Below, in pieces: positions 4,315 through 32,480 of a DNA stretch of 47,032 nt (its first letter is position 1; every line of letters starts with the position of its first letter). The stretch comes from Tubiluchus corallicola. Lineage: Eukaryota > Animalia > Priapulida. Location: NCBI GenBank assembly GCA_030141605.1, contig JAQGDQ010001329.1, positions 1 to 47,032 on the forward strand, given 5' to 3'. The notes below the pieces were generated by a model. That model saw only the letters and a list, made by a program, of their open reading frames with translations. It made no database searches and had not been told where the DNA came from. The translations under genes were made by a program, and so were the position numbers.

Positions 4315-5346
4315 TTAAAAGATTGTAGACGTTTTTACCGCATCCCAATCAAGCCTTATTGGTTTTTCTGGTAAATTTGCAAAGGAGACATTCCACATTA
4401 ATAGAGGTTCGAAATCACATTCCCCTATAACTTCTTTAGCACCTCTTTGGTAATTCATTCCCACTTCTCTTCTGTTACAAGCAAACGTTTTGTTATCAGG
4501 TAAATTAGCGTACAGTGTATACAAGTTGTTTACTGCAAAATAATACATGATATAGGATGAAGGCATCGACCTCATCTTTAAATGACGTTTCCGTATCCAG
4601 GCATTTGTGATTAATCTTCGACCTGGAATTATCGGAATAAAACTTTCATCTATCATCACATCAAACACCCAATTACAAAACTGATGCCATATTTCTGGAA
4701 TAGGTGCAAATCCCCAAGTGCCTATCTGATGATATAGAAACACGTCTGTTTTATAACAATCTTGACACAAAGGATTTCTATGTTTCCCTGATGTTGAAAT
4801 CAAGGTTCCTCTTTGCAGAGTTATGCCTCCAATATCAGACTTTTTATGATACTGTAATAATGCAGCTTTAAGCCATGTATAATAGTGAGGGGAAACTTCC
4901 AGATCATCTTCCAAAATCAGCCCGAATTCTCCTTTCCTTCCAGACGGTTTCCAACAATCATACCATTGCAAGTATGGTCCATAGTGTACAGGGTGAACAA
5001 CAACTTCCTTTCTACTATAAATCCATATAAATGAGTTAATGACGTCAAGTGCAATAGCTGATATTGAACTGTCATTAGCACTTCTGTCTACACAAATCTT
5101 TAACCCAACTTCATCCTCATCATAGTGACTTGAATTAAGTGATTTTAGAAGCCTCAGCAATGACGCTGGTCTATTGGAAGTCAGTACAACGATTTCCAAC
5201 TTAAATAATTCATTTTTCTTCTTCCACTTGTTAAGCTTAGTTAATCTAAAATGCGCAATTCCACAATAGAACAACACAAACATACAAAAGCAGGCAAATA
5301 TGACAAATCTTTGCTGCTTATTGCAAACTGATGCCTTTCTGCGCAT
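4315..5346 (-). CDS. Intronless type II membrane GT-A fold glycosyltransferase (GT2-like, uncharacterised family resembling plant/fungal proteins), 343 aa
   Basis: Basic N-tail plus TM helix (FVIFACFCMFVLFYCGIAHF), IVVLTSNRPASLLRLLKSL, LILEDDLEVSPHYYTWL (DxD-type motif), FLYHQIGTWG; uninterrupted ATG to TAA. Confidence 0.85.
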   Translation of the reverse strand: MRRKASVCNKQQRFVIFACFCMFVLFYCGIAHFRLTKLNKWKKKNELFKLEIVVLTSNRPASLLRLLKSLNSSHYDEDEVGLKICVDRSANDSSISAIALDVINSFIWIYSRKEVVVHPVHYGPYLQWYDCWKPSGRKGEFGLILEDDLEVSPHYYTWLKAALLQYHKKSDIGGITLQRGTLISTSGKHRNPLCQDCYKTDVFLYHQIGTWGFAPIPEIWHQFCNWVFDVMIDESFIPIIPGRRLITNAWIRKRHLKMRSMPSSYIMYYFAVNNLYTLYANLPDNKTFACNRREVGMNYQRGAKEVIGECDFEPLLMWNVSFANLPEKPIRLDWDAVKTSTIF

Positions 5347-6439
5347 TACTATTTAACTAAGCAGTTAGTCATTGCAGAAGATAAATGAACTCCATCCCTT
5401 CGCAAGCTCTAAAATTGCCTTTTGCTTGTCGGCATATGTTTTCTAAATCGCACACTTTAAGTTTTTCGCAAATGGTGCGCTCTCTGATGAGAAATATCGT
5501 ACTGCATTGTGAGATTATTGAAAAGATGATGATGGTGGCGGTTGCCACCGAAAGTGAAATTAAATTTGATTCGTTTATTCAGTTAAAGTTGCACAAAACT
5601 TTTAATAGCATATCGTGCTTTCCTGAAAGATTTCTTGTCATTAGTCAAAAACAATGAGCACGTGAAGTAACTTTTCGTTTTTATTGGTTCTCTGATGTTG
5701 GTCTCTAGCAGCCATATCACCAAGCTTAATTATTAGAGCATACACATAAACTTAGATATAATTTAGGCACAGCGGTAATAAACTTTCTTTAGTAAATTGA
5801 CCTGGGGCTTAAACCTTTTACAAAATCACTTGACGAGATATACTAGCATTCAAAACTTTTTTCACCTACGTTCCATCGCCAGCAAATAATCTATAATTCG
5901 TGCATTCGTCTAAGAGGATCTAATACCCATTTATCGCATGTTAAATGTTTCATCTTTCAATGACAAATCTAATGTACATATCTGGTTTGCTGCTGATAAT
6001 TAGTTGCTAGTTTGCTTATCGTTTGCAGCGTTTGCTTCTTTGACTCTCACTCATTTCTGAGACTAAGAAAGAAACTGTGTTTGGCTGAAATCAAAAGTGA
6101 CGCCATCATCTTTGCTCGTGCAGTAGATGCTCAGTGCACTCTTCCATGTTGCTGTGAAGAAGACCATAAATTAACTCACCACAGTAACTACAATAATTTT
6201 TATCATTAACATCATTTATTTTCGAAACCACATGTACAGTGACATACGTGGTTCAATTAGAAAATAATCACTGACAAAAACAAGAATGGATTTAACCTAC
6301 ACACAAGAAGACAAAACAATTAGTTTAAACGACCCAACACAAAACAATAATTGTATGTTGTCCAGAAAAAACGACAGTTGCTCTTTGCCTAATGAATGTC
6401 TACGAATCAGAGGTGATTTTGTAATTAAGCGCATTGTTT

Positions 6440-6620
6440 GTTAGTAACATTTTGTTTGATAGTATTGAACGTTTTCCGTACTGTTGTTATCCACGATGGC
6501 CGATTTTTTACGATTCTTTGCATTCATCCAGAACTTCACCACATTTCAAAGTGCTTTTACAGGTACCCTTGTATCTTAGGTTAGGGCGTCCAATGGGGCC
6601 TTCTGTTAGCCTGTTTTAAC
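6440..6620 (-). mobile_element. RTE-clade LINE 3' fragment
   Basis: Minus strand translates to GPIGRPNLRYKGTCKSTLK, matching the RTE C-terminal GRP.LRYKD..K..LK motif; stops nearby. Confidence 0.55.
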
Positions 6621-7377
6621 AATAACCAGTTTTCATGATTTCTATAGATTTTAATTGGTGTTTTGAGAATGCCGCATACACACTTATTATAATGAATAAA
6701 TTTAGAAAAATACATAAATGCAATATATCTTAATAAAAATTAGAATAACCAAACAAACATTTTTTGCAAAATTGATAGTAGATAATTTAATATAGTTGTG
6801 AGACAGATGAGATTCTCCATCTAAGAAGCTAACAAAACACAACACGATCTTCAGTTTCAGTGAGCTACGATATAGCACAAAGTATATATGTGTAGGTCAC
6901 TATGATATTGTAGTTTTGTCCCCCAATCAAGTAGAAATTGCCAAGTATCTAAAAGAAAAAACAATTCCGTGGTAAGATAAAAAAGATAACTATACTATAA
7001 TGTCGCGTTTTTCCATTAAATGCTCTTGTTTTTCAAGTATTGCACCACAGTAAGTATAGGAAGAAACGATTTAGATTTTTTTAAGGCAGCTGGTGTAAAA
7101 GCACCGCAAAAAGACACTTTACTAATAATGAAACAACTAAATTTACAGTGTAAACACGGATTTATCTATGCGGGACATTACCACTTAGAAAAAATCTGAG
7201 TCCTGCATGAAATTGTAAACGAGCTTTTATTTATTGGTATTACACGTAAATATAAAACATTCCATTAAACCATTTCACAGATGGTTCCACAAAAGAAAAT
7301 ATGATTGCATTCATGTAGTTATATCACATCATAGACAATAAAACTTTTATTATTGATGAAGTTTTTTTGAAAGGCTG

Positions 7378-10300
7378 TTATAATGACATAAAAGCTGGCA
7401 TATAGTTTTTTGCATGTTTTAGAGCTAGCGTCTCATATTTTACACCAAAACGACCAAACACTAACAAGTTCGTTTTTGAGTTTCTGATTACTGAACAAAA
7501 ACTTTGTAGTTTTGGTTTGTGTGCATATTTTGACAAAATGTCTGCTGTAAAAGCTTGCTTTAGTTGTCTGCTTTTGCGTTCTTGTTTATAACTACGATTC
7601 TTCTGTTGCATTCGAGTGTGAATCAAAAACGCATTGTCAAGAATGTGAAAGTTGTAATCTTCCAGGCACATCTCAAATAGTTGCTGCATTTTGTTGAATC
7701 CAAATCCTCTAAACCTTTCATCGAACATAGGTACACTGTTGTCACCTTCAAAAATGTAAATATTGTCAAAAATTTTCAATAAAAATGGTAAAGTTTCTAC
7801 ACACAATTGTGTTAGGTATTTACTCCAGGTAATAACAAATATCCCAAAATGCATATTTTATAAAGAGCCACATATAGGGACTGTGGTATCTGTCGTTCAT
7901 GTTGCATAGAATTGTAACTATAACTCCAACAGGACTGTCGACAACCAGGCCTACTGATGAGGATAACGATTGTATGACATCAATATACATTACAGGAAAG
8001 CATTAATTCAACCACAGCTGCACGTTGAGCTTTTACAAAATCGACATGCACTTCCGGAGGATCACCTCATTATGTGTCACGCAAACATTAATAGCCTAAA
8101 AATATTAAACTCGTAAAACCATTTGAAATATTTAACAAAAATTCAGTAGATGTGTCCGTGATATCTCAGACCGAACTAGAAAAAAGCATTTTGAACAGCC
8201 CGCCAACAAATAGTTACTACAAAGTGGTTGCAGAGATGCAAATTAATCTGGTGGTGACGTAGATATGTACGTGCGACACCAGCAAATCTACATCAGATCA
8301 TTTCCTAAGTAATCAGCCCTAAATCGCGTCATTTTGATGACATTCCCTGTACAATTTACAATGTAATTTGCTGACTCATAACCGTGTTCCCAAAATAGCT
8401 GCAAAGTGACGAAAATGTACTTCAAAATAGTTTTTATTATTTTCTGCACATATTGTAGAAGATGACGTAACGCAAGCGTAACATGTGTTAAACTTGTGAA
8501 GAACAATGTTGTAAGTGGCTCTTCGTAAATATCTTACGAGATATTGTAAAAAAAGAAACAACTTTTATTAAAAACTTTAACGCCTTCAGGACTTTTTGGT
8601 GCATTTTGCATGAGTTCATAAGAAACTGCTCTCACTAAGCTCTCACTAATTTTCTACTGCTTATACAAAGGCTACCGCGTTTTGACGAATAAATTGAAAA
8701 AAGCTTTCAGTAATTGTACTGTTTGCGCTGTAGCACTGTACAGACTCAACACTCTGATACACTTTAGCCTCAATTCTGCCCTACTTTTAAGGAGAGATTC
8801 TTTTTAAAAGATGAAACAACCTTAATATGACCTTGGCTGATCGACTGCTTTGTCCTGGAATAGCAGCAGAGCCCTGCACAGCTTGGACTGTAACCTAGCA
8901 GGTGATCAGTAAATTAGTGTGCACGATCACGCAAGTATACGTCAGATCAAGCTACTCAAAAGGTTAAGTTGGAGTGCCTGAAAGGGGCGTGTTTTTCCAA
9001 TTAACTTTATCAAGTTAAATCACTCATAAATGCTGCTACTCCCCTGCATATAACAGCACCTAATTTGTAATTCCTAATTATGTATTTAAAAGGACGCCAA
9101 ATAAGGAAATAAATTAGTTGGCCGGTATAAAAGAGAGCCATATAATAAAACCATAGTTAGGTGCTTGTAAACTAAGTTAAAGGAGTTAAACTATTCTGCA
9201 CATTAAGAGAAGGCTTGTTAGAATACGTTGATAAACTTCCTTTCATTAAAGATGGAAGCCTTCTCCAGAAAATGCTACAAACCAGGAAAAATCTGGTAGT
9301 CCATCTTAGTGGTCATAGGTCTGGAGGCATAACGGAAATTAGAGGCAACTGTACATCATAACTGATAGCAGAATCTGTAAGAGAACGTGTACATTATTGT
9401 ACTAGACTGTGACCTGGCGTAGTTATGGAGAAGACGAACCGGGGGAAGGCTAGACAGAGATTCGCCAAAACTTAAGGTTTGAGTTGGTTGAAGTCTTGCA
9501 GAACCAGGTTAAGGATGGAATTCTCTGTAATTGTTGGCTATCATATGAGAGTGAATATTGAGTTGTGAATAATGCTGTTGCTCATCCAAATGCACCTCTC
9601 TCTGTACGTTCTCAATGATAGTTTGCATGCTCTAACTTGAACTAGTGGGTTTTCGTGTCCAGTGACCATGTTTATGAGTGAAGTTCTGTCATTACAAAAC
9701 AGTTAACATACTTACAAATGTAAACAGGCTCCCATCGTGGAGGTATCCATTTACTGACAAAAAATGTTTCTATCTGATATATGGGATAGTATGGCAGCTT
9801 GAGCATGTTTCCTGAAAGGAAAGCAACATGGTAAATAATTTTGCGATATGAAAAATTTTGATATATTGACATGTCGATTTCGACTGTCAGGCAATTTTTC
9901 GAACCGTCAGACGAATTTTTAAGAAGAATAGTGAATAAAGAGAATAGAGGAAGAGAACTCAGCTTATAGTAATTTGAAACTAACTGTAACGTTACAAACA
10001 ATTGGTATTGCAGAATGCTAACTTCTATTTTCAATGATTAAAAGGCATGCAATTTTATCTTAGTTGCTTACTGTACATTTTGCATAAAGCAGGCATTATG
10101 TTTTTGTGACAACAATATTCAAAAAACTCAAACATTCCAACACATGCAGCATCATTGCTCCAACATGCTTCTCAACATGTTTCTATCAGATCCACTTTCT
10201 TTGGCATAGTCTTCAATTTATGTGCTGAATTTCCCCATAGTGAAAATCACTTCATAGTGAACAGAATATTTTGAGGCTCTCGCAGTAATAATGTATATAA

Positions 10301-11588
10301 TAGTATCATTAGTATTAAATTTTTATATTGATCTTCATATTTTGTAATACCAGTGAAACCAGCAAAATGGTTTTTAACGCAGAATAATTTTTAAAAATGG
10401 CTACTGTTTTTAGAAAAAAAGAATAAAATCAGTTTCAAATCATCAGCTGCGAGTCAGTTGGAAATAGAAAATCTCTAGTAAAAAGACGAACTTTAATATG
10501 TTTAATAAGTACTTTGGGGTTTTTCTCTGATTTTGCAATTATTGTTGAAATATATACTCTTGTCTTACTGCCAAAAATACCTGATGGAATAATTGTGCCT
10601 TGTGCTTGCTGATCAATTTCAATAGTTGAAGTTTATCTTCTGGTAACTGTTGATCGTCAGAAATTTCAAAAACTGGTAAAACATAAACAGATTTTGCAGT
10701 TTCTTTGCTTTTTCTCCTACTCATCATCCGTATAAATTGTTCCATAAGATCCATTGAAGGCTTTAGTTCAACGTCTATTAGTAAGACGTATTTTGTATCA
10801 ACTGCCAGTCGAGCTGTGTTACGACCCACGTTAATCGGATAAAGACCATAGTCAGTTATGTCTGGTTCATTGGATAGAGGCAATGATGAGTTTATTTCAC
10901 GTCCACCGTAAAACATAATACCCTTAGTGTACGGAACATCAGTTTCTGGAAAAAATAAGGAAATTGTTACTTGTTCCATAAATTTGGGATAGCACTTTCT
11001 CATATATAAGACAGAGTTTATTACGAAGTCAAAGTTGTCACCAGGCACATACAATGCTGCTGATATAGGTCCATTGTGTCTTTCTGTTAACTGAAGCAAA
11101 TGCTGTAAGTACTGCCAAGAGGATTGTGTAGCTATTGTCAATGCTTCACGAGGAAACTGCTTTGTGGCAGGTATGAACCTCAATACCTTTTCAAACATCA
11201 CATACTGGTTAGCAGAATTATCATAAAAAACTGAGACTATAGCATTTTGAAATTTTACTTTTGCAAAATGCAGTTTTTTAGTTGAATTGTGTTTGTTCAC
11301 GGACGATAATTCCGCTGTCCCGCTTCCTTCATCATTTTCTTTATTTGTAGAAATGCATGAAAATTGCACTACATTTTCTAACGCTACAAAGTTAAAGACT
11401 ATTTTATTGTCAATCTTCATTTGAATTGAAAATTCACCAAACTTTCTATCACTAGAACCATGATCACTCAGGTGAGTAAAAACACTAAGGTATGTAAAAA
11501 CGAAAAGAAGTGAAATCACTTTTACAAGTTTTCTACATCCATTTTGCATTTTTCTTACAGGAAATGCCTTGAAGCAAGTGAAGGACAT
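7378..11588 (-). pseudogene. B4GAT1/LARGE-type GT49 glucuronyltransferase-like gene, exons ~11588-10581, 9811-9716, 7745-7378; frameshift in exon 2
   Basis: Exon 1: TM helix, LTIATQ, GPISAALY, YPINVGRNTAR, LLIDVEL, VYVLPVFE, donor CAG|gtattt. Exon 2: acceptor ctttcag|, ETCSSCHTIP then RWEPVYI in another frame, donor T|gtaagt. Exon 3: acceptor ttttgaag|, PMFDERFRGFGFNK..Q..E, FHILDNAFLIH. Exon 2/3 phases join as WEPVYICDNSVPMFDERF. Confidence 0.85.
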
Positions 11589-15415: not shown

Positions 15416-15820
15416 CTATTTTCGTAATGAATATTTTCTGACAAATAAATACCTATTTCTTTTGTATTCTAAATTGGTATTTCTTTTTACTGTTGCAACA
15501 AAAACGTCATTATAGTGCAGCGGCATTAATCCATACATCTCAACAAGTTCATTAAGACACTTAGATCTGTTAAGATGATGTTTGTTTGCATATTGTAAGC
15601 CCTTAAAATGCGATCCAAATTTATCTATTTTCAAATGTTTTCTAGGCAATACACACATTCCTGGTGAATCTTGTAGAAACAGTGATACAGCAAAGTTTAC
15701 AGCAATGTCATCGCAGTTGTTGTACTTGTCTATCATGCGGAAAACAGCCTCCGGGAAATTATTGAAGATCTTGAAGTAGCTTCGGTGAATCAACATTGGA
15801 GCTGTAAAAATGCGTGAATA
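15416..15820 (-). pseudogene. Exostosin-like (EXTL2/EXT C-terminal, GT64) glycosyltransferase, C-terminal part only
   Basis: YSRIFTAPMLIHRSY...IDKYNNCDDIAVNFAVS...HHLNRSKCLNELVEMYGLMPL matches GT64 YSMVLTG..F.H / NCEDI.MNF / H...RS.C.N.F...YG.MPL. In-frame TGA just upstream of YSR; possible acceptor tttttacag near 15803; upstream exons not recognised. Confidence 0.75.
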
Positions 15821-17569
15821 AATTCAGTGACCAAATGTAAAAAAGCCCCAGAAATTTAATGACGGCATTAGGACGTCTCATTATCATCTCAAAAATCGAG
15901 AACTATTGGATTCAGAAATCACGAACATGAACATTGAACAATTTTGACCCATGCAAGAAAGGAGCAATAGCCACACAAGGTATGATCTACAGGAAAGATG
16001 ATGAGATAACTATCAATGTCCGAGACATTTAGTCGTCAGGAAAACAATTCTGCGAAAGGGAATTTTACGGAAAGTGGAGGGGAAAATGATTCTTTGGAAG
16101 TTGTTCGACATTTGGTTACGACATTTGGTTCAGAGAAGGATATGAAAAGCAGAGGGAAAACGAGCTTCACGACTGACATCAACAGATTTCTCAGATTGCT
16201 TACAAAGCAGATTTGTCATTAATTGTTTACATAATTATTTGGAACACACTTTAAACAGAAGTGATAATTGCCATGGTCGCTCTAGTCACATCAAGTCTCG
16301 CATATTTTGCTTCTGAGTCGATTTTTCAAAATGTTTGTTCAGAGACTTTTACAGAGAAAAACATTTTTTCAGCATAACACGACACAATTGTTTTGTCCGA
16401 CAGTTAATCGCTTTACAAGTTTTTCAAACATATTTGCAGGTTAGTTTAGAGAAAGTTTTGCTTAAAGATAGAGCGTATAGCATGGGCCATAACAGTTTAT
16501 ATAAGTGATGTCAAAAACGTGCAATAAAGTAAGAAGATACATTTATAGATTATTACTTTTTAGACAGATAGGTGACTTTATACAAGCAGTTAAGATTGTA
16601 AGTTGATTAAATTTTGAACTATGTTATAGTTTTCTCAAAAAGAAATGTGCAGAGCATGTCAATAGTTAACCTTTCAAAGACAAAATCGCTTTGGTAGCCA
16701 GCCTTTTCATAAAAAAAATACATTCATTTTTTCGGAATAAATAAGAGTGAAAATTCCAACTGCAAGTGGATATGAGTAGGGATACAATTTTGTTATCTTG
16801 AATCAGCAACTAATTTGTTATATTTGTTATTGTTTCTATGATTTTTCTTGTCTTACTTTAGTCTAGTTCTTTGCTTCAATGTTTTTGGTTATATGTGCGT
16901 AATTGACGTATATGTGCTTTATTGAAATGAAGCACAAAATCAAATTAAAACGTAAAATGAAAAGATTAGTAATCAGTACTAATCCTGAATTTGAAGATAA
17001 AGACTGTCTTCGTATGGTAAGCGTGTTCCCTGAAAACAGAAACTTCTAAAATTTTTTAAATGACAAAGTCTTGTATTTTTGTATCTAAGTGTTTGTCACT
17101 TAACATTGGATTAAGGCAGGCATACCTGGCAGTATAATCGAATATTTGCCATTCAATGTTGATGGAACATAATTATACCTTCCTCCGAGTATAGTATGTG
17201 CACGACACGCAAAACCAAATATTCGATTTGGCAGCTGAAATAAAGAAAACTAAAATTAATTAAGATGAGGAGGCAAATTGGGCAAAGTATAAGCAGACTG
17301 CAAACCGAGCAAGGTTGCCATACTTTTTTTTAATAAAGTACAAAGGGCATTCTCTGCACGTTAGTTTTCTTAACACGGGAAATAGTTATATTTGGTTTAA
17401 TGTAATGGAAAAAATAGCCCTACCAGCAAAAAGATTGCAAAAAACGTTTGGTGTTTTCTTGTATTGATTGATCCAGAGAATAACATATGCATATTTCACT
17501 CAATCGAGATTTGTTAAGTGACATAATATCATGGTCCTTTTCTCAATAGAGTGATCGTATAGTTTTATT

Positions 17570-18670
17570 TAGCCGTCTCGAGTGATCGTGAACTATATCT
17601 ATAGATTGTATAGATTGTATATTGATTTTACAGATTCGCTCTTCGTTCGCTACAAGATGATTTTATCACCTGCCTTCGAGGGCTATAGTTAAGTCTATCA
17701 GACAATGATACTGTCCTTCAAGACTGTCACTTTGACCTTGCATTGTGAGTGGAGGTCTTCTTCCCTCAAGCTATCGAGCGTCGCTCCCGCAATTGAGCTT
17801 TAGTTAGTTAATACAATGCGAATCTCTCAAGTTCGTATCTAGGTTTTAGTGTTGCTTTACTTTGAACGCTCCTAATCATACCAGAACTCGTTATCTAAAT
17901 TGTCACAGAGAATCGAATTTATCCAGTTATAGAATTTACTTTATCTAATCTGGTTTGCTTTACAAGATTTATCCTTATACGCTTGTAGGTGTTTACAATT
18001 AATGTATAGCTCCAGAAAGATGCTCATACAATTTACTTGACAGCGGCTCAGTAAGCTGCACTTAAGGTGCTTAATACACTGTGAACTACAGTTATGCAGA
18101 GTTACTCTCAGATACGAATGCGTTAAGTACACTTAACTGGCGGGCTGACCACAATGTACCCCGTACACTCGGTCAACTCCAATTAGCTTTACGAGACTCT
18201 CGTTGATCCAGTGCCCAGTCTATCGCTGAGAACGCAGAACTCCTCTACGCTGGTGTCAAACGATGATCTTCCTTCCTAGAAGCTGTCCCGGACACACTGT
18301 CAGATTCTCCTCTTCGATGTGCGTGTGGTCTCGTGCCTGAGATCCCGTGTGTGTGTAACTCTCGTGTCACACACCGCCGTGTGGGTCTGTGTGTCTAAAA
18401 CTCAGAGTTTATATCTCGAAGAGCTGACCATGCTAAAGATTGCACCATATGGCAAAACCGGCGGCAGGTGACATCCCTGCTATGCGATTTCTGCCTTTAC
18501 GATCAGCAAGTTGGTCTTCGAATTCTTTCGCTCCGTGAGATCTCTTTCCGTCGTCGGCAACTCTTTAGAATTTCTCTTCCTCCGATGTCTCCGAGCGCTG
18601 GTAGAGAGACCTTGGTGATGGCCATAAAGTCGTCTTCACAAGACATCTGCCTATTACCGACTTTCTGTTA
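17570..18670 (-). mobile_element. Possible LTR-retrotransposon relic
   Basis: GC-richer island; minus strand reads ISRSERIRRP (resembles RRS.R.RRP at the end of Gypsy pol) followed by gcaggga|tgtcac and a tataaa near 18410. Boundaries approximate. Confidence 0.3.
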
Positions 18671-19744
18671 ATTAACTGTAACTCTGCATGTGGCTATTCA
18701 AGACAATAGTGTCTTCGCTTAAACAGACACCTGTTTTCCTCCAATAAACTATACAAGACACACCTGTATTTCTCTACAATGTGCAATAATTTGCGTCGCA
18801 TTAAATCCGTACTTATCAGCTGGGTGAGTTTCTCTATCAACCAATAAATTTATTTATCAACTGAATCTAATTCAGCTGATAACTCCATTAATTTACCACC
18901 AAATTATCGACTTATAAATTTATTCATAACAATAAAGTCAAGAGCTTTTATTGCCGTCCGTAAACAACCAATCTAAACCTACAAAACTATAAACCCTCTT
19001 TTTCCCTAAATACCGACAGGCAGGACAATAGCAGGTGCCACATTTAAAGTATTTGGTGTGACCCGGCTGCTGTATCAAACTTGAAAACTACGGAAAGTGG
19101 GCGAGTTACCACTAGACTAGCTTATAAGACTAGACTAGACTATATCTTAGCTATCAGAGCATATGAAAGCTAAGATAGCATAAAACTGTGACAATATTTC
19201 AGCTTATTTCGTTAACATTTATTTGTTAGAACATTGGAATCTGCATATTGTACAAATCACAGCTTCTAGAAATTTGCCTGGTTATCTTTGTGGAAAGCGG
19301 ATGTATATCTGTGTGTATCTAAATACTGCGAATTTTCAGGAGATTTTAACCAATCAACGTTTAATGTTATTTCAGCATTGAAATTGTTTCAGGAACGCGA
19401 ATGTGAAAACGTTTTTCGAAAATTCCCTCTAGCGTCAACGCTAAAGCATATTTGTAAACTATGATAATGGTGATTTTATGCAACTTACTGTGCAAAACGC
19501 TATTGTCAATATCCTACGGGGATTTGGTTCTGCAACTTCGTGATTGTTAGCAATGACTCAACCTGTTAACATAGCATCCGAGAGCTATCGATGTCCCCCA
19601 AAACTGCATTTAAGGTATACGTCACTGGATGCTACACATTTCCTTCATACTTAATGATGACATGATTGATTTGATATTTTTCTGATAAGTAAATGATTTG
19701 ATAATCAAAGCCAATTACCAAAAGACATCTATCTATATGGGCAG

Positions 19745-20180
19745 TGTTCTAAATGCGTTCTCGTATGCAATGAACAACGTTGGAATCATTCTAGATGGTC
19801 ATTTAACCATGCACACCAGTATTAACAATGTTTGCAACAGCCACTGAAATTCGTACTTACGCATTTATTTGACAAGGATACATGATATAACACTGTTGTT
19901 ATAGTACACTTTCTGACATTACTCGGTATCAGATTGATAAACAAATTGATCGCTCGAATATTACAGACACTGCCATGGCCCTTAATGGCTTAGCACCATT
20001 CTACATGTGTCATTTTCTAAAGCCACACGCGCCTAAACGTAATTTTAGATCTCTATTAGTTCAACTAGGTGTTCTCCATCACAATCTAGTCACAAACTGT
20101 TTTAGCGTAGTAGCACCAAAATTATGGAACGAAATGCAAATTCATACAAATATAATGACTAGTGTTGACAATGAATTACT
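19745..20180 (+). mobile_element. L2-clade LINE 3' fragment
   Basis: NVGIILDGHLTMHTSINNVC and ALNGLAPFYM..FLKPHAPKRNFRS...FSVVAPKLWN are typical L2 RT-tail motifs. Confidence 0.78.
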
Positions 20181-21726
20181 AAACAGTTGGTTATCATCTG
20201 AAAGTAATTAGATAGATAATTGTTAACTACGCACTAACTATTAAGCATTGATATTAATTGACGCATCTGCATTGATATGCATTAACCAGTGGCGGCTCGT
20301 GTATGGGTACGGTGGTACTGCTGCACCCTGATTTTAGCGAATCCAGGGTTCAGCGTGGATCCGTCACAGGATGTACATGGCATACAAGTGATGACATTTC
20401 TCAGCAGATGAGATAAGTTAAAAGATCCAGAATACGAGTATGAAATAAACTTTAACGCTAACTAGTAGCTCCAAACTTTCAGAAAGAAGGACACGTGATC
20501 GTGTGAAGGACATATTATTATCTGAACTTTAAAAAAGATAGACGCATAGATACGTTTATCCTTCTTACTATCAAAAAAAATTCCCCAGGTAGAAGTCAAC
20601 GCTCCTCATTTAATCTCGTGAATTCGGAGGGATTTTAAGCTCAAAACAAAATGAACTTTGGCTCTACCGCACACCAAGAAAGGGTACTAACTAGGAGTAA
20701 AGAGAACTTGTTAAATTGTACTATATGTTAAATAGTTATGTTAATAAGAGTGTTACAGAAGGAAGCCAAATAAGGAGAGCTAAGGAGTGGTGCCACGAGA
20801 TGACGTAATTGACCTAGTTGTCAGGCTGCGCACGACGCTTATATATAAGACCCCGACAGATTTGTTTACTAATTTAAGCCTCTGGCTTTATATGTCTTTC
20901 TTCACAAAATGTTTTTCAAATTATTATTTGTATTACATCTCTGTGTGTATTGCACGGTATATAAAAGGTTATGAGAAGTTACGTTACGCTATGTGTTACT
21001 GAACTGGAGATTATCATGTAAAAGTAGTTAAGTAGGTAATCGTAAACTAATCATTAACTACTAAAATTGTCACAACTGCAACGACATCACTAACGTCTGT
21101 AATAACAATATTGAAATCTAAATGTAATTAAAGTACTTGGATTTTCTGAACAGCAGTTACGTTGTACTCGTAAATGAGAATCACCTTACACAAAATGGCC
21201 ATTAACCGCCGGTCGTCACTGCCTACACCATACCGATCAATAATACGTAACGTATACACGGACTGAAAATTTGTAATAAAGTCATCTACGAAAACATAAA
21301 CTATAAGTATAATGTCACGTGTCTTTTAGGCCATCCTGTAAAATTTTCAGTTCTATTCGAACCTACGTTTACTTCCACATACACGATATAAACTAGACAA
21401 ATAAAATATATTTAACGGAATATATCATAACGGAAAAGGATAGCGAGTCGAGCCGTCATTTAATAGATCAAAGCACTACTGAGATGGCACTATTTCATTC
21501 AAGTATAATGTGATGATATAATACTATTTTACTTAGCAATTTGATCTTTTTAAATTTGTTTGATGATTGACTGAAAATTTCTTCAACTAATTTTAAATAA
21601 TTCTCCAATTAAAACATCGACACATCAGCATGACAGTAAAATAAAGTCTGTTTATGATAGTGGTTATAGCTGCTGGCTGATTATCGTTGCTTATTATTGT
21701 GGTGGCTGAGGCTCGTGAAGATTGCG

Positions 21727-22060
21727 TGTGGAACAGCCACAATGGGCGTGGCAAGCTACCAAGACTTTGTTTAGTAAACTACACCTTTATTAAATAAGAA
21801 CCTCAGACACAGTAAACATAAGAAGATAGCAATGCCAGCCCTCCATCTTCAAGACTGCTCCTAATCTTGTCTGCCCGAGGTGCGGGGGCCTCGAATTCCT
21901 TTTGTCTAATTAGCTAAAGCATATGAGCTTCTGCGCATAAAGATTTAATCATCAATCTATACTCCTGACTAAGTAGCCCGAACATCAACTGATCATCACG
22001 TGATATGCCACACCTAACCTATGTCTGGGCTTCTAGCTCAGACAATAATTTAATCTTGTA
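21727..22060 (-). mobile_element. Solo-LTR-like dispersed repeat, copy 1
   Basis: Shares tgtgg.acag, ggcaa(a)gcta..aagact, tttattaaa, agatagcaatgcca, atatgagct..gcgca, tcacgtg in the same order with 28677-29060 and 40242-40600. Confidence 0.5.
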
Positions 22061-24784
22061 TTGTCAAGGTTTTAATCTTCATTTAATAATTTAATTATAG
22101 TTTGATTTTGAATCATTATTTTAAAAAGCTTTCCTTTACTATGACATCAGGTAATAACGATGATCACAGGAATAAAAGAGAGCTATATAAATAAAATATT
22201 TGAGTTTAATAAGTGTTTGAAGTTTCATGGCGTACATCATAATTTTAGCTGTAAATGACAATCACGTAACATCCGTGACCATAAACCGCCGATCGTCTTT
22301 AATGATTATAGTAATGGCCGTTACTTGAAAAGCAACAATTTTTCATTAATCAATCTAGCCAACAATATAAATTTATACACCAGCATTTACGATATGTCAG
22401 ATGTAGTATGAGATGCTTGCCTTAATATTACTTACCAACCTCCAAACACCATATGCTCTTAATAAATCTTCTTCACCGACAAGTGTATCGTCATCAAATA
22501 TTAATACAAACTATAAAAGTGAGCGATGTCCTGTGTCTGTAAATTATTTACATTTAATACAAGGACAAGTAGAGATAAATGAAAAATTATTTCAAGGTCA
22601 GATTACATGAAAATGCAAACAAGCTGTTGCAGCTTTTACAATCGACTGTGCGGCCTCCACGTGCTTTAAAGCAAATAATTTACACAACAAAACCTCAGCA
22701 AAGAAAAGACAAAAAAAAGTTGTCATCTTTCTTGAATCTGTTATGCAACACATAATTTGATGACGTAGCTACTCGTCATGCACTCGTATACCAAGTATCT
22801 ACGTATTTACTTCATGAAAAAGTCCTGGTCAGCATCAGTTTATCCACACACAGCATAATAAAATCACCACTGATGTTGTGGTAACTATTACAGGATTGAT
22901 TTAGGAATTCAACCGGAATATTCGTTTGCCCTGAATTTAACGAGCTAGAGGCGAGATTATATTCACACCTTGTTATTCAATCCCATAGCCGCTCTTAAGC
23001 TAAAAGATAAATTAAGTGACGACTAAGAAAATTATCTGTTCCTCTTTGCTCCCCAACCACCAAGACTTTTTTCCACAACTCACACTGCTTGTCTCCATCG
23101 TGTCGAATATTGTTCTTGCATGGTCCATGCAGTTTTTTTTATCTTACATTTACTAAAAGCATCATCCAACACTACTTACCTTCTGTCATTATGTTGGATG
23201 GAATTTTCCACCGATTTGCCAGTGTATTTGTTTGTGGCTTAATTATAATGAATTCCTTTCCCCGGCCTTCCACTATTTGAGCTAGAAAATTTGGCACCAC
23301 TTCACCTAAACAAAATACTTTGCTTATGGAGGAAGTTTCGAAGTAATATAAACTCTTATAATCCAAAAAAATTAATGGGGGGTAAGTGAATAAATGACGT
23401 GAGCAGAATAATCATGATGTACCCATAGCTAACAAAGTTGAATAACAACGTGTCTGACCGCAAGTGCATATGAGATTTATTACCAAAGATGTGAAGTAAT
23501 CATATTGAGGCAGGATTTATAAACAGACTCTGGAAGATCAGTGTCCCATCTTAAGATCACATCTAATAATGTAAATCACGTTACAGTAATGTCTGTACAG
23601 TTAAGACATTTACAGAAATTTCAAGACCGTGGTGAGCAAAGGATTGTTTCTCAATGAACTCTATGAGAGCAAAATAAAACTCAGTGTCACAGTGTATGTT
23701 TCCTGTGATGTTATAGGTTAAAGAATTCCTATTTGACGTCAATTTACAATTTCACCTAGTTTTGATTTTGAAATGCAAATCAATGTTGGCCATTCTGTAT
23801 CGGATCCTTTAAGTGGTCTGGCCTCCAAAGCTCAACACCAGGTTGTTCTCAGAACATAATTTTTTGGTCGCGTCAGTGGCAGATTTCATGTTTGTCGTAA
23901 TTTGGTGATTTGACCTCTTTTTTCCATTTAAATCCAATCCCTTCCCAGCCAGGTAATGTGATTTTTCTTAAAATTCGGATTGAAGCATTTCCAGAGAAAC
24001 AAAAACATTGTGTTTTTTTTCGTATTTTTGCAATAGCAGAAGCTACTCAGTGCCATGTGGTCAATAACTCAATAACAATAATAGCAGTAACAGATTGGCT
24101 GCTTATGCGGAATGCTCCTTCATTGTTGATTTACCCCGATTAGCAACATGCCTGCTGAAGCTCTTTGCCACTTAAGCAGCACTTATACTTCCTACTTATA
24201 CTTACATTTTGGAAGCTTTTGTGCTGCATTGGTTACAGACACTATCCACTTTCATAGAAAATAGAGTATTTAAGTTTAAAAGTCATGTTATCCAAATTTA
24301 GATAGCTAAAACACTGTAGCTATTTAATAAATTGCCCACCAAATCTCAGTCTACTGTCCTTACTGACTTCGTCTTCCAGGATTGAGTTCAGTTCAATCCT
24401 GCAAACCTTTGCAGCATGTAACAAAACACTACAGCAGTAATCTCAGAGCCTGCAAGTGTGGCGAGCAGCCGTGTAAAAGTTAAGGTAATCGAGGCTCTTC
24501 GGGTTTTGCTAGTCATCAGGTTTTAAAGGCTTAGCATTTAAAGCTGCTACAAAATAGAAAACTAAAATATGGTTGATTTGTTATGTAAGCTATGTTTGGA
24601 GTAATATGCAGGGCTTCGCAATCCACATTAGCTTAACTTAGTAAATGTAGTTGACTAAATGAAAATAATTAAATTTCAAAGTAATAAGACACACTCCACT
24701 AAATCAGTACGTATGGACAAATGCATAATCACAGCTTAACAGTAAAGCACATTTGTGGCAGTTGCCTGTGTCAGTGGACTGCTT

Positions 24785-25085
24785 AGAGGACAAAAAACTT
24801 CCTTCCCAAATGACTTCCTAGAAGGCAGAACATTTCCTAGATGACAGAGGACTTCCTAGATGACAGAAGACATGCAAAAGGACAGACAGCTTCTTTGAGA
24901 ACAGAGGGACCTGTTATAGGACTTCCTAGATGCCAGAGGACATGCTAGAATCCAAAGTCTTTCTTGAGGATTTCCTACAAGACAGAAGACTTTCAGTAAA
25001 ACAAAGAACTTCCCAAAGAACTTCATAACGGACAGAATACTTATAGGAGGACAGAGGACTTCCAAAAGGACAGAAGGACATCCTA
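24785..25085 (+). repeat. Degenerate ~18-19 bp satellite (ggacagaggacttcctaga), locus 1
   Basis: Recurrent gacagaggacttcc / cttcctaga motifs. Confidence 0.85.
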
Positions 25086-27530
25086 GCTAAACATCGTACA
25101 ATGAAAAGAACATGATTCTGAATGCTTGTATTTTGAGCATCTACAATCTTACTTATTATTATTTTTTGGCTAAACGAAACCCGGTTTGCAATTTTGACAC
25201 GACACGTCTAATTTTGGTATCATGGGAAATGCAGTAATGTAAGGAAGTCTCTGTACAATTTTTGGCTGGTTTCACGTAGGATTTAAAAGAAACCATGTTA
25301 TCCCATATATTAAGTAAAGGATTCACCTATACACGAAAAAAGTATCTAAGCAAATTTGATTTTCTCATTAATTACCAGACAGTTAAAGTTAGATCGTCTC
25401 TCATTACACAATACGACTTAATTTCGTTTTCCTTGATTGTTCTCATATATATACATAAATAATCCCGAAGGTTTCGATTCTTATAGGTTTTTGTCTTGGT
25501 ACGAAAATACCGCAAACACGAGTTTGTTTCAATTAATTAAAATGTTGTGCGCTTAAGCACGACGTACATTATGTTATTACTTATGCGAAACTTGAAAATT
25601 AAAGAATTTTTTGCAAAATTTTGCGCCTCCGGAAATTTGACGCTCTAGGCAACTGCCTGGCTGGCAAAATTCTCCAATATCCAGCATCCAACAATACTTT
25701 ACAAAATTACAGTATAAAGGGGCACATCACTAAATATATGCTCCTACTAAAAAACTGTTTTGCTTGGTTTTGCTGAAACTCGCTCAGAAACAGTAATTTT
25801 AATTTGATGTGCTCATTTATACACCTGCAGTACCTCTCCATGACCCCACGAAGCCATAAATTTTATTAGGCGTGTCAGTGTATTCTATGGTACTATTTAG
25901 ACTAGTATGTTATACTTGGTAAAACTACACGCCTTGCTACCAAGCTTAACTTCATATTGTCGCTAATTAGACTGTTACAAATATCAATGGGACTTATTGC
26001 ACATAATTTTGCAGTTTCTCTTTGAGTAAATAATAAGTATATAATGGTTGTATGCATGACATGTTGGTGAATACAAATGGAAAGGTATACCTGACTGCTG
26101 TTAACCTAGTGTTCAGTAACTTGAAATTTTCACAAGAAAATTGAGTTAAAGTTTTGCATGCGTTAACAAGCGGGTACTGTCTATCACTATCGGTGTTCCG
26201 ACTACGTTAGCGCTATAGTTTGGTAGTACCTGTATTGTGCCGCATTTTAACATAACGTTTACTTTCGTCGACTTTGACAGACTGTCTCCGCACTCACAGT
26301 GAGCCAATTCGATAGGTCGTCAGTTCACATGGTTTTTGGATTTTTTTAATAAATGTTATGATCTATGTTTTATTTTTTATGAAGAGGCGCGTGTTTAGTA
26401 CATGATTCATGAATGTAAACGTGTGAGGCGAAACAAATGCAGGTATGGTCAAATTTGACAATTTATGTGTGCCAAATCAATTTTTTTATATTAGCTTATA
26501 TGGTTCAGACAACTTTCGTACGATGTTCATCAGAACCGTTTATAGTTATTTAAATATATGACGTTTACATTGGACGATCAGTGAAATTTTTTATAATAAT
26601 GAGCTTAATTTTCTAAATCCATGAATTCGTAAAAAGTTAATAAGCATTCTACTATACATATTAAAGGTCGCCTTCAACTGATTCTTGTTGCTCCAGTACA
26701 CCCATGTACGCTGACCAGTTAATAGGCGCTGACGTCAATATTTGACCCGTGAGCCCCGTAATTATGATAGTGGTACGAAATTCAGCTTGCCCAGGCTATT
26801 TTGACAAGCCACAAGATGAACTACTTGTAGAACTTGCGATGCTTTATTGTAAAATTCATCAAATTATTATTATAATTATTATACAGTAATAATTTTTAGT
26901 TAGTCTTTTAGCGCTATGTTCACTATTTACTATAAGCGAAATAAATTTGCCTTCTAGATAATTTGTTTTCTGTGCATCACGAAATTTTTCCATTTCTATT
27001 GCCTGAATTTTATTTTTCAACATTCAAAAAACATTATAAGAGTAAAGTAATAGCAGTCTTTTTGTCATTAAATTGGCGGGAATTGATAGGAAAATGCACT
27101 TTTTATAACGAGCTTAAGATGAAGATGATGATGCTGCTGATAATGATGATGAAGACAATGATGAAAGTGGTGGTTGGAGTGACGATGGCGATGATATAAA
27201 GATTCATCTATCCCATTCCAGTGGTGACTGCAGTTACGTGTGTGCTATCAGCTTTATGACACATATTTCATCTTTCCACACAACGTTACTTTTTTCAAGA
27301 TAATGCTCAATTTGCCTTTACAAATGTTTAGTTTTTTCCTCTGTGTTAAATGTCCTTAATTTAATTGCATAAAGTCAACTCTTTAATTTCTTGCAGGGTT
27401 GAAAATGGTAAGATGAGAAAAGAAAAACAAGAACAGCAATTAAAATATAGCATGTATCAATCCGGGGATTATTTCATGTAATTCGTATTAAATCTATTAA
27501 ATTGAAGCAAGCTAATCAACGAACACAACA

Positions 27531-28531
27531 ATGCGTCGTGACGAGAAAAATGTAGGACGTAAGCTATGTACACTTCTAGCGGGAGCTGCCGGTTTCCTCG
27601 TGCTCATTGTCATGTCAAAAAATCTACTTTTAAAGAAATCAAATGGAATTGAACTCTTCGAGAACCTGTCGAAAGGCGAAGCTAATGAGGCAAGTAGTAT
27701 GCCTGTTTTCAACGCCAAATCAACAGAAGTTTATCGGGAAAGACTGCAACGTATCAGTGATGTCTGTAAAACTATGAAGGGTTCGTCTATAACGGAAAAC
27801 AACTTAAAGTTCATCTTGGTCAATGATAAATTTAAATTCCTGTACTGCCACATACCAAAGGTCGCCACGACCACTTGGAAATCTGTACTAATGAAAATAC
27901 AACAAGACGCAAATTATATCCTAATCAGAGAGTTCACTTCATACAAAACGAGTATAACCTGGGTATTTATTCAGAATCTCAGAGGCAGTACAGATTGCAG
28001 AATTACTACAAATTCCTGTTCGTTCGTCATCCTCTAGACAGAGTTGTCTCAGCATATCGCGACAAAGTCAATCGAACAGAAGAGGACAGCTTGTACTTCT
28101 TAGTGAAATACTACCTTCAGGGATCAAACGAATATCGCCAACGAGTTGAAACCGAACGAAATCGAACCGTAGACATGAAAAATTTTTCAGAATTTCTTCT
28201 TTTTCTGTTGGATTCAAGTTCTTACATGCCACCTTTCACGAGAAAACGTCACCAGGATCACCACATGTTTGAACATTGGGAACCCTACGTTACTTTGTGC
28301 AATCCTTGTGCCATAGATTATGATTTTATAGGAAAGTACGAAACAATGCATGACGATGCGAGTTATATCCTGAATGAGCTTAATGTCACCAAACTTGTTA
28401 GCTGGCCTAAGAATCGAAGGCCCAAGGTTGAGCATCAAAAGTATTTTCGATCAGTTCCTAGAAACACAACTAAAAAATTGTGTCAACGTTTCAGCGAAGA
28501 CATGGCGCTGTTTGATTACAATTGTTATTAA
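27531..28531 (+). pseudogene. Carbohydrate sulfotransferase (CHST8-14/HNK-1ST, Sulfotransfer_2 family), intronless, one frameshift at ~27895-27915
   Basis: TM helix; 5'-PSB FLYCHIPKVATTTWK in the first frame; 3'-PB KFLFVRHPLDRVVSAYRDK, HWEPYVTLCNPCAIDYDFIGKYETM and EDMALFDY in the second frame. Confidence 0.9.
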
Positions 28532-28676
28532 TTTCCATTATTTTTTCTCAAAAAAATTTGAGATTGATGCCTTTGTAATTAAAATATACAATAGGTACAG
28601 GACATAACTTACTAACGGTTTGTGTTCTATATGCAAAGACAGTTCGTGTCACTACTGCCAGTAAAAATAATTCGTT

Positions 28677-29060
28677 GTATAGCGGATAATCCGTTGTATT
28701 GGTTGTGTGTAGCTGATTATTGATGCTTTAGGAATGGCAAAGCTATGAAGAGTCTGATTATAAAACGACACGTTTATTAAACATCGAACACAATAAATAT
28801 AACAGATAGCAATGCCAAAGGCCCCTGATCTAATGGCTCTCTACGCTCCGGCTCCCAGACTCAGTCTAGTTCTAATTCCTTGAGCTGGGCGCATCTTAGT
28901 AAAGTTATAAATAACAATAATTTTATCCCACGTAACTTCTACAATTGGTATAGAAAGGAAGAAGTGAACGGAACAATAATTAATAATCTCTTCCTCGCCC
29001 TCTTTCTCTAAGTTCCAGGGCCTACCCATGACTGAAAGTCTTGAAAAAGATGCTTGTGAC
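28677..29060 (-). mobile_element. Solo-LTR-like dispersed repeat, copy 2
   Basis: gttgtgtgtagctg...aatggcaaagctatgaaga...tttattaaac...agatagcaatgccaaaggcccctgatct aligns with 40262-40389. Confidence 0.5.
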
Positions 29061-30024: not shown

Positions 30025-30700
30025 ATCGACTTCCAAAATTACAGAGGTTTTTCAAAAGGACAGAGGACTTCCAACAGGACAGGGGACTTCCAAGACTACA
30101 GAGGTTCTCCAAAAGAGCAGAGAACTCTCTAAAAGACAGATGACTTCCTAGGAGACAAAGTTCTTCCTAGAGGATTGAACACTTCGAATAGGACAGATGA
30201 CTTCTTTGAAGACGGAAGACCTACTAGAGGACTTCCTAAGCAAGTGAGGGTTTCTAGAACACAAAGGTTTTCCTAGTGGACTTCCTCGAAGGACAGAGGG
30301 CGTCTAAGAGGAAAGAGGATTTGTAAGAGGACAGAAGGCTTCCAAGAGGACAGAGGACTTCCGAGATGAAATCCCAGAGGACACAAGATTTGCAAAAAGA
30401 CAAAATTCTTCCCAAAGGACTTCATGGAGGATACAATACTTCCAAGAGGGCAGATGACTTCCAAGAGGTCAGAAGACTTCCCAGAGGACTTCCTAGAAGA
30501 CAGATGACTTCCTAGAAGACATTGTTCTTCCTAGAGGATTGAACACTTCCAATAGGACAGATGACTTCTTTGAAGACAGAAGCCCTCCTAGAGGTCTTAC
30601 TAGATGCCAGAGGGCATCCTAGAAGCCAAAGGTCTTCCTAGTAGACTTCCTAAAAGACAGAAGACTTCCAGAGGACAGAGGACTTCCAAGAAGACAAATG
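30025..30700 (+). repeat. Degenerate ~18-19 bp satellite, locus 2, with internal higher-order duplication
   Basis: Same gacagaggacttcc unit; ~30135-30290 repeats at ~30500-30660 (ttcttcctagaggattgaacacttc.aataggacagatgacttctttgaagac). Confidence 0.88.
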
Positions 30701-30779
30701 TTTTATTTAAAAAATATTAACAAATTAAACAATTTTTTAAAAAAAAGTTTAACAAATTAGGAACCCGTAGAGTGTCAGA

Positions 30780-31020
30780 GACCCACTACTGAACTATATT
30801 ACATTCTCACAATCCTGTGCCATTCGTTATGGTCTTATAGGAAAGTATGAAGCAACATGCTCAGTGAATTAAATGTGACTGATCTTGTAACCTGCAATAA
30901 AAACAAAGATCTACGATTGTCAATCAAGAATTTTTTAGTATGATTCCTAGATCTGTTACAAAAATTGTGTCATACAATAAGTGAGGATTTGGCATTATTC
31001 GGGTATGAGTGCAGCGAGTT
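30780..31020 (+). pseudogene. Decayed 3' fragment of a second CHST paralog
   Basis: caatcctgtgccattcgttatggtcttataggaaagtatgaa aligns to 28300-28341; translates in pieces to CAIRYGLIGKYE, LSELNVTDLV, KLCHTISEDLALFGYEC (cf. KLCQRFSEDMALFDYNC). Confidence 0.8.
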
Positions 31021-31850
31021 CATAAACTTATCCTCGTCTATAGATTCAATTATTATTCTGACAAAGCGAACAAATGACTTATCTACTGTTAAAATATTAA
31101 CAAATTATTGAATTTGTTCATACATGAAGTATGGCACTAGCCCTCTAATCCCGCAAACACTATTAGTCTAATATTTTTCATGGTGCAGGGTATTATCGCC
31201 CCGTCACTAATGATTTGTAATTTTTAAATTACAAACTCGTTTGTTCTGACTGTAGAAGGTTTTAGATAGTCGCTTTTCTTTTAACTCCAGACAGAATTGA
31301 AAACAAGAAGTGGTACTTAAGTATGTGCCCACGCGCTACCACTCTGCTTTTTTACTGGGAATAACCGAATGCATATATATTAAAATTAAAAAAATTGCAA
31401 TTAATTTTTTGTGCAAATTTCACCGGAAGTTGCTTTGTGCAGTTTTGATAAAAGAAAACGGAAATAAAATAGTTTGTGTAAAATGTGAATAAACAACTCA
31501 GTGTATTTAATAGCCAGTATATTTACTTCGGCATTAATTTTTCGCGCAAGCTTTGCAAATCTTTTTGCGTTTTCGTTACTCTGTTAGAGTTTTCCTAAGT
31601 TTTTTTCTAATGTGTAGTCTAATTGGTATAGAATGTGTTACACGTTTAGGATAAAATTTGGTAGCATGAAGTATGAAGACAAGCTATCCAACAAGATTTA
31701 ATAAAAAGCAAGATGGTGTCATGGGAAAATAAGATTATAAAGAAGACATTGGATAAAAGAGTATGACCAGTGTACAAAAATACGAGTTTGCAAGGCTATG
31801 TTGTTTATAACTGAGTTTTAATTAACATAAATACGCTGAAGGAGCTAAAG

Positions 31851-32480
31851 ATGTTCAACTTTATTCAACTACATAAGAAAAATTGGGAACAATTCAGGCT
31901 ATCGCAAGCTACCCGCATATGTTTTTTACGTTTGTTATTAATTTTCGCTACTTGTCTCTTTATTTACAAGTTTGCGAGTTCATATCACAAACACACGTCA
32001 ACTGTAAAAAAAGCTATCATGGCACTGAAAACGAGTAATTGCTCCGAATACCATATTATAAAAAAACACAGGAAAGAAATGCTGTTGTTTGTTGGCATCA
32101 TAAGTGCACCTATTCGCAGGGAACGACGGGATGCAATCCGATTGACGTGGATGAAATGGTGTCACAGTTTTGACGATGTCATCTGCAAGTTCTTTACTGA
32201 CGAACAGGATCACTTCGGACGCCGATTAAGGGATGAATTGCTTAATCCCTTTATTACTGAAGCCATGTTACACTGTGCTAGCCGAGACACCAGGTGGATA
32301 CAACTTCGGTAGGTGGCTCGCATGGATGATGCATTGGGCTTGGCAAAGATTTGAATTTCAGTATTTCCTGAGAATCGATGATGACACATTTCTGTGAGTT
32401 CCCAGAGTAAAAGCCGATTTTGTCTTCCTGACTAATGACAAGCTGTTGTGGACATACCAAAAATGCGATGGTAAGAATCA
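31851..32480 (+). pseudogene. GT31 beta-1,3-galactosyltransferase-like (B3GALT6-like) gene, disrupted
   Basis: TM helix; LLFVGIISAPIRRERRDAIRLTW; after a frameshift at ~32265-32290 GYNFGRWLAWMMHWAWQRFEFQYFLRIDDDTFL then TGA at 32395-32397 (overlaps a gtgagt, so a donor is not excluded). Confidence 0.82.

What the first reader, a model, noticed from the sequence alone, without database searches (positions are those of the whole stretch)
4315..32480. Candidate animal biosynthetic gene cluster for a sulfated GAG-like glycan
Seen: every recognisable host gene in 28 kb is a Golgi-type glycan enzyme and they belong to five non-homologous or distant families (GT2-like, GT49, GT64, Sulfotransfer_2 x2, GT31), three leftward then three rightward. 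Known: B4GAT1 adds GlcA to Xyl, EXTL2 transfers alpha-1,4-HexNAc, GT31/B3GALT6 adds beta-1,3-Gal, CHST8-14 sulfate GalNAc/GlcA; their vertebrate counterparts are not clustered. Tandem duplication cannot explain the mix. Inference: a pathway-like cluster making a lineage-specific sulfated surface, mucus or matrix glycan; actual substrates are unknown.
Basis: partly seen in the sequence, partly recalled or inferred. Interest (0 to 1): 0.82.

Follow-up and report, generated by a model that had tools for sequence, protein, structure and literature searches.

The report
Decaying sugar-enzyme gene cluster, marine worm
An animal, likely a priapulid worm, keeps six genes for Golgi enzymes that add sugars and sulfate side by side; four are broken in this copy and a fifth likely is, while the same DNA sample holds unbroken versions at the two breaks checked, so this is likely a decaying duplicate of a gene cassette whose shared product is untested.

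Summary
The grouping is real: six glycan-enzyme genes of about five families, with no other host gene detected between 4.3 and 32.8 kb. GT49 has a frameshifting deletion, sulfotransferase 1 a one-base frameshift, and sulfotransferase 2 and the GT31-like gene are relics. The 5' third of the multi-exon GT64 gene is not recovered in frame. Only the 'GT2-like' gene is open, and it folds like GT13 (MGAT1/POMGnT1), not GT2. DNA contigs of one sample hold other versions of four genes and of spacers, about 2-14% diverged in the genes. These lack the GT49 and sulfotransferase-1 breaks. Nearest named relatives are Priapulus caudatus proteins. Chance under independent gene placement is small, but these families are expanded in invertebrates. 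Linkage of the unbroken versions, conservation in relatives, expression and product are all unshown. 'GAG-like' is unsupported: no xylosyltransferase or GT47/chondroitin polymerase gene is in the window. The scan noted an intact cluster of this kind before, in another marine worm (unchecked AI note). Verdict: real, mostly pseudogenised cluster; pathway role plausible, about 0.4.

The parts
4315..5346 (-). Open single-exon gene, 343 aa, type II membrane GT-A glycosyltransferase with an EDD motif; GT13-like fold; uncharacterised family of invertebrates, red algae and protists
   Evidence: ORF; hydrophobic anchor at aa 14-32; no Pfam hit; fold Z 19.0 to POMGnT1 (rmsd 3.0, 210 aligned) and 18.6 to MGAT1 (rmsd 3.5, 219 aligned); clade with two Priapulus proteins, support 1.0
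7378..11588 (-). GT49 (B4GAT1-like) gene, three exons (11588-10581, 9811-9716, 7745-7378); exon 2 is out of frame and stops early in this copy
   Evidence: Pfam PF13896; tblastn with P0009-P0012; exon 2 is 96 nt where 3n+1 is needed; two other versions carry 37 letters in place of 6 at 9772-9779 (tables 5 and 5c)
15416..22510 (-). GT64 (EXTL2-like) gene: three in-frame exons (22510-22436 with the DDD motif, 17234-17126, 15801-15416); 5' third not recovered in frame
   Evidence: Pfam PF09258 positions 79-101, 102-140 and 134-239; best PDB hit EXTL2, E 8e-18; exon phases
23180..23560 (-). Candidate degraded 5' part of the GT64 gene; it joins the next exon one base out of frame
   Evidence: By eye only, from a recalled likeness to EXTL2; phases; not confirmed by Pfam or PDB
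27531..28531 (+). Golgi carbohydrate sulfotransferase 1 (Sulfotransfer_2); one-base frameshift near 27908 in this copy
   Evidence: Pfam in two frames; own HMM; another version has one more base at 27908 in 3 of 3 runs; homologs named CHST8/9/12/14 at 30-36% identity
30794..31012 (+). Sulfotransferase 2: 3'-third relic of a tandem duplicate with stops and frameshifts, downstream of a degenerate 19-bp satellite (30028-30696)
   Evidence: tblastn E 1.4e-9; DNA alignment; TRF
31851..32750 (+). GT31/B3GALT6-like relic: membrane anchor, frameshift near 32270, in-frame stop near 32396 and more stops; 3' end approximate
   Evidence: Translations; B3GALT6 top PDB hit at E 0.97; the two best hits of a GT31 domain fall here in order, E 0.34 and 0.82

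Best explanation
This 28-kb block holds six Golgi glycan-enzyme genes of about five families, four of them broken here and a fifth likely broken, and it is likely a decaying duplicate of a gene cassette whose unbroken versions would together build a short sulfated, glucuronic-acid-bearing cap on secreted or surface glycoproteins. Shown: the gene set, the breaks in the window sequence, and other versions of four genes and of spacers in the same sample that lack the two breaks checked. Inferred: the block was copied as a unit and this copy, at about half the depth of the other sulfotransferase version, is being lost. Inferred from family chemistry only: the GT13-like enzyme adds beta-GlcNAc, the GT31-like enzyme beta-1,3-Gal, GT49 GlcA, GT64 an alpha-1,4-HexNAc, and the sulfotransferase sulfates GlcA or HexNAc, giving an HNK-1-like antenna rather than a long GAG. 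No substrate was tested.
For: Five families adjacent with no other host gene detected; fewer than 0.01 such runs expected under independence for an assumed 1.2-5% glycan-gene fraction. Diverged versions cover genes and spacers alike (for example 11585-11961, 16446-16927, 26243-26635). Other versions lack the GT49 and sulfotransferase-1 breaks. 5 of 7 listed coding differences in sulfotransferase 1 and 3 of 4 in GT64 are synonymous, which fits recent function (partial lists). 35 of 43 long homologs of the GT13-like enzyme that I scanned are fused to a GT77-type domain, several to further glycosyl- or methyltransferases, so the family works in glycan assembly lines elsewhere. Sulfated and glucuronylated antennae are known in invertebrates (PMC6367135, passages).
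Against: No listed contig bridges two genes, so linkage of the unbroken versions is not shown. Summed depth differs between genes (about 550-1000 over the GT13-like gene, 260-520 GT49, 230-500 sulfotransferase 1, window-identical pieces 77-100), so at least the GT13-like gene also duplicates on its own (depth is only a hint). The nearest Priapulus caudatus hits to the GT13-like and GT49 genes sit on three different scaffolds of 51, 628 and 743 kb. The families are expanded in invertebrates. In the GT13-like gene only 5 of 13, and in GT49 0 of 4, listed differences are synonymous. Other versions of sulfotransferase 2 and the GT31-like gene were not examined. The window's own breaks at 9772-9779 and 27908 were not seen in a listed contig, so an assembly slip is not excluded. 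Known HNK-1 glucuronyltransferases are GT43, not GT49 (recalled).
Confidence: 0.42

Rival explanations
1. A birth-and-death neighbourhood: fast-turning glycan-enzyme families collect in a gene-poor, transposon-rich region, are copied together by segmental duplication and decay, with no shared product.
For: Most genes broken; many versions of the GT13-like gene; satellites, transposon relics and a virus-like element around the block; several paralogs on different chromosomes in Owenia; unlinked nearest hits in Priapulus.
Against: It does not explain why only glycan enzymes, and no other expanded family, were found here; a glycan-gene fraction near 10% is needed before chance gives 0.2 runs of five.
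Confidence: 0.38
2. A split heparan-like copolymerase: the adjacent GT49 (beta-1,4-GlcA transferase family) and GT64 (alpha-1,4-HexNAc transferase family) alternate to make a GlcA-GlcNAc chain without the usual EXT GT47 half, primed by the GT13-like and GT31-like enzymes and sulfated by the CHST.
For: GT49 and GT64 are neighbours on one strand; the two family activities match the heparan repeat GlcA(b1-4)GlcNAc(a1-4) (repeat from PMC6367135; family activities recalled).
Against: B4GAT1 and EXTL2 are single-step enzymes in vertebrates (recalled); the sulfotransferase is of the CHST8-14 type, not a heparan type; no xylosyltransferase or GT47 in the window; nothing assayed.
Confidence: 0.1
3. The window is the second allele of a single, highly heterozygous locus and some of its breaks are assembly errors, so a working cluster sits at this very place.
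For: The window's breaks at 9772-9779 and 27908 are absent from the listed contigs; at 16446-16927 two versions lie at equal depth.
Against: A net 31-base loss and several substitution stops are not typical errors; window-identical contigs flank the sulfotransferase break at one half to one third of the other version's depth in 3 of 3 runs; GT49 exon 2 has two distinct other versions. Contigs drop rarer variants.
Confidence: 0.1

Closest known systems
Brown-algal fucan cluster (sulfotransferase + FK-GFPP + hydrolase), PMC11468063, passages read
   Same: Eukaryotic cluster of unrelated enzymes including a sulfotransferase, proposed for a sulfated glycan
   Different: Conserved across most brown algal genomes and includes a sugar-donor enzyme; here an animal, only transferases, conservation not shown, copy decaying
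Octocoral terpenoid biosynthetic gene clusters (PMC12685057, passage read; Scesa 2022 and Grayson 2025 seen only in its reference list)
   Same: Animal genes for unrelated enzymes colocalised
   Different: Small-molecule pathways with conserved clusters and shown chemistry; here Golgi glycan enzymes, no product shown
Vertebrate EXTL2, B4GAT1, B3GALT6, CHST8-14 and MGAT1/POMGnT1
   Same: Domain families or folds
   Different: Distant (about 30-36% for the sulfotransferase, 11% structural identity for the GT13-like protein); orthology and activities untested; unclustered in vertebrates (recalled)
Scan note e1-9934415, marine worm four-gene Golgi cluster (AI note, unchecked)
   Same: Multi-family glycosyl/sulfotransferase cluster in a marine worm
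   Different: Reported intact and repeated at several loci; no sequence look-alike to this window was returned

Membership tests
Animal biosynthetic gene cluster | Three or more non-homologous enzyme genes adjacent | tested here: met
   chance estimate
Animal biosynthetic gene cluster | Genes intact in the cluster | tested here: not met
   4 of 6 clearly broken, 1 probably, in this copy; other versions lack 2 of 2 breaks checked
Animal biosynthetic gene cluster | Linkage conserved in paralogous loci or relatives | tested here: inconclusive
   Spacers have diverged versions but no bridging contig is listed; nearest Priapulus hits on three scaffolds, orthology unsure; metagenome scan gave one 1.6-kb contig
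Animal biosynthetic gene cluster | Co-expression and a shared product | not testable with these tools
   No RNA holder listed; no assay possible
Glycosaminoglycan pathway | Linker xylosyltransferase and a GT47/GT64 or chondroitin-synthase polymerase | tested here: not met
   None detected in the window's scanned frames; the rest of the genome is not held
GT2 | Pfam Glycos_transf_2 match or nearest fold | tested here: not met
   No Pfam hit; GT2 folds at Z about 14, below GT13 at Z 18.6-19.0; some distant homologs have weak GT2 hits
GT13 (MGAT1/POMGnT1) | GT-A fold with EDD motif and significant sequence match | tested here: inconclusive
   Top fold in both searches; EDD invariant; sequence match only E 0.25, no Pfam hit
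GT49 | Pfam PF13896 above cutoff | tested here: met
   159 and 71 bits against cutoff 27
GT64 | Pfam PF09258 above cutoff with DDD motif | tested here: met
   73.7 bits against 21.3; two more exons below cutoff singly, collinear
Sulfotransfer_2 (CHST8-14 type) | Pfam PF03567 above cutoff over both halves | tested here: met
   32 and 120 bits against 22, in two frames
GT31 | Significant profile match | tested here: inconclusive
   No Pfam hit; B3GALT6 at E 0.97; second piece gave no GT31 hit in PDB; motifs recognised from recall

The most novel reading that the evidence does not exclude
Marine worms carry modular glycan biosynthetic gene clusters, cassettes of unrelated Golgi transferases that are duplicated and lost as units. 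This priapulid cassette joins an uncharacterised GT13-like enzyme shared with red algae to a GT49/GT64 pair that may be a new split polymerase for a sulfated heparan-like or HNK-1-like secretion. Gene neighbourhood would then become a way to assign substrates to orphan animal glycosyltransferases.
Probability: 0.22. Interest if true: 0.85.

Novelty: new variant of a known kind. Interest (0 to 1): 0.5.

Why it matters
The animal enzyme clusters I found in print are for terpenoids, and the only eukaryotic glycan-sulfation cluster in my searches was algal. If invertebrates group Golgi enzymes by product, the genes for their many unexplained sulfated glycans could be found by neighbourhood, and the widespread uncharacterised GT13-like family (1997 relatives at E up to 0.001) would gain a testable role. 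This window is a poor model for the chemistry because it is mostly pseudogenes; its value is as a pointer to the unbroken versions.

Tried and rejected
No genome is held, so no genome-wide family count or permutation test. No RNA holder listed; this is no evidence on expression. Viral contigs: 0 of 105 pattern matches were relatives of the GT13-like gene. Metagenome contigs: 1 of 85, on a 1.6-kb contig. PHROGs: 0 of 6 proteins. The ESM Atlas gave no answer. My first reading of GT64 as a lone 3' fragment was wrong: a scan of 102 short frames found two more exons. Cargo of the virus-like element at 41-47 kb: not supported, no terminal repeats enclose the block in the self-comparison (first 120 rows). 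Recent transfer of the GT13-like gene from red algae: not supported, it groups with Priapulus proteins and the family is in annelids and molluscs; deep branches are unresolved. A maximum-likelihood tree did not finish; FastTree was used. No complex prediction was run. Scan look-ups by place and sequence returned nothing. Paper searches listed no animal glycosyl/sulfotransferase cluster, judged from listings and abstract starts; two key papers were not held and no supplements were read.
Full report
Setting. The window is AT-rich animal DNA with spliced genes, satellites and a virus-like element at its right end. No genome is held. The two best of 1997 relatives of the leftmost protein (251 bits against 172 for the next) are Priapulus caudatus proteins. 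They form a clade with it at support 1.0 in a FastTree of 157 domains. The only named hit of 4 for GT49 is also Priapulus. The host is therefore likely a priapulid or near relative; this is an inference.

Gene inventory. (1) 5346-4315: an open 343-aa gene with a membrane anchor, no Pfam hit and an invariant EDD. Its model (pLDDT 75.6) matches POMGnT1 and MGAT1 best (Z 19.0, rmsd 3.0, 210 aligned; Z 18.6, rmsd 3.5, 219 aligned), then MGAT2 (16.7) and GT2-type folds near 14. It is GT13-like, not GT2. Named relatives among 30 proteins looked up are Priapulus, Owenia, Sinanodonta, Argonauta, three red algal genera and a Vitrella cluster member. (2) GT49, three exons. Exon 2 is 96 nt, out of phase, with an early stop. 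(3) GT64: three in-frame exons from 22510 to 15416 cover profile positions 79-239. A candidate 5' part near 23180-23560, recognised by eye only, joins out of frame and was not confirmed. (4) Sulfotransferase 1 is split across two frames near 27908. (5) Sulfotransferase 2 is a 3' relic with 199 of 278 aligned bases identical to the first. (6) A GT31-like relic has a frameshift and stops; its label is motif-level only. Spacer scans found no other host family; introns of GT49 were covered only by some ORFs of 55 aa or more, and the short GT64 exons were missed at first, so small exons of other genes can have been missed too.

Is the grouping chance? With 20,000 independently placed genes, runs of five glycan enzymes are expected 0.00006 times at a 2% fraction, 0.006 at 5% and 0.18 at 10%. 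The fractions are assumed, and independence is doubtful for families that expand in unstable regions.

Other versions in the same sample. Three DNA runs of one sample hold the region. I laid their contigs on 4200-17000 and 26200-28690 only, so the two relics and most GT64 exons were not examined. In run X1 the 8 listed window-identical pieces lie at depth 77-100. Diverged versions cover genes and spacers. At GT49 exon 2, two distinct versions (depth 227 and 71) carry 37 letters in place of 6; 96+31 bases is in phase, and read by hand the frame is open and lines up with the Priapulus homolog. At sulfotransferase 1, a version about 5% diverged has one more base at 27908 in 3 of 3 runs, at two to three times the depth of the window-identical pieces, and shows no other frame-breaking gap in the listed pieces from 27608 to 28537. 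Summed depth is highest over the GT13-like gene and its upstream spacer. The tool warns that depth is not copy number, so I use it as a hint. No listed contig bridges two genes. The window's own breaks were not seen in listed contigs, which drop rarer variants. Of listed coding differences, 5 of 7 in sulfotransferase 1, 3 of 4 in GT64, 5 of 13 in the GT13-like gene and 0 of 4 in GT49 are synonymous (from the 40 of 1426 and 40 of 133 rows shown).

Mechanism. The best-supported history is duplication of a block followed by decay of this copy. For function I favour, at about 0.4, a cassette for a short sulfated glucuronylated cap on secreted or surface glycoproteins: GlcNAc by the GT13-like enzyme, Gal by GT31, GlcA by GT49, alpha-HexNAc by GT64 and sulfate by the CHST. 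Every step is inferred from family chemistry (recalled). Support is indirect: 35 of 43 long relatives of the GT13-like enzyme that I picked are fused to a GT77-type domain, and such antennae occur in invertebrates (PMC6367135, passages). Against: the nearest Priapulus hits lie on three scaffolds, Owenia has paralogs on three chromosome-scale sequences, and there is no expression evidence. A product-free birth-and-death neighbourhood is nearly as likely (0.38). A split GT49/GT64 heparan-like polymerase is the boldest variant (0.1).

Known context. A sulfotransferase-containing cluster is conserved in brown algae (PMC11468063, passages), and terpenoid clusters are known in octocorals (PMC12685057, passage). 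Six searches listed no animal Golgi-enzyme cluster, judged from listings; subscription papers are mostly not held. The scan itself noted an intact cluster of this kind in another marine worm (e1-9934415), which I could not test.

Verdict. Observation partly confirmed; interpretation partly supported. A real multi-family cluster, mostly pseudogenised here, with a plausible but unshown pathway role. Novelty: new variant of a known kind. Interest 0.5.

Noticed in passing
window 42043-47030: Polinton/adintovirus-like element (label recalled from gene content): adenoviral-protease-like ORF 44932-45363 (Pfam Peptidase_C5, E 0.004, below cutoff), capsid-like and polymerase-like pieces by recall, and a TATA-binding-protein-like domain in ORF 42043-42984 (Pfam TBP E 6e-11; PDB TBP E 1e-5). 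None of the 8 papers listed contained 'TATA-binding protein'.
   Followed up: partly
window 1-2337: Perfect 187-bp inverted repeat (1-187 and 2151-2337) enclosing about 19 copies of a 57-bp unit; likely a non-autonomous transposon.
   Followed up: no
window 24776-25081, 30028-30696, 37433-37730: Three degenerate copies of a 19-bp-unit satellite; one lies where the 5' part of sulfotransferase 2 is missing.
   Followed up: no
window 36598-37205: 49-bp tandem array of about 12 copies, open in several frames, next to a weak DDE transposase match.
   Followed up: no
window 4315-5346 and relatives P0036-P0177: The GT13-like family has no Pfam model hit for the single-domain members tested, yet spans invertebrates, red algae and multi-domain fusions with GT77, GT47, GT61, GT11, GT31 and methyltransferase domains.
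   Followed up: partly
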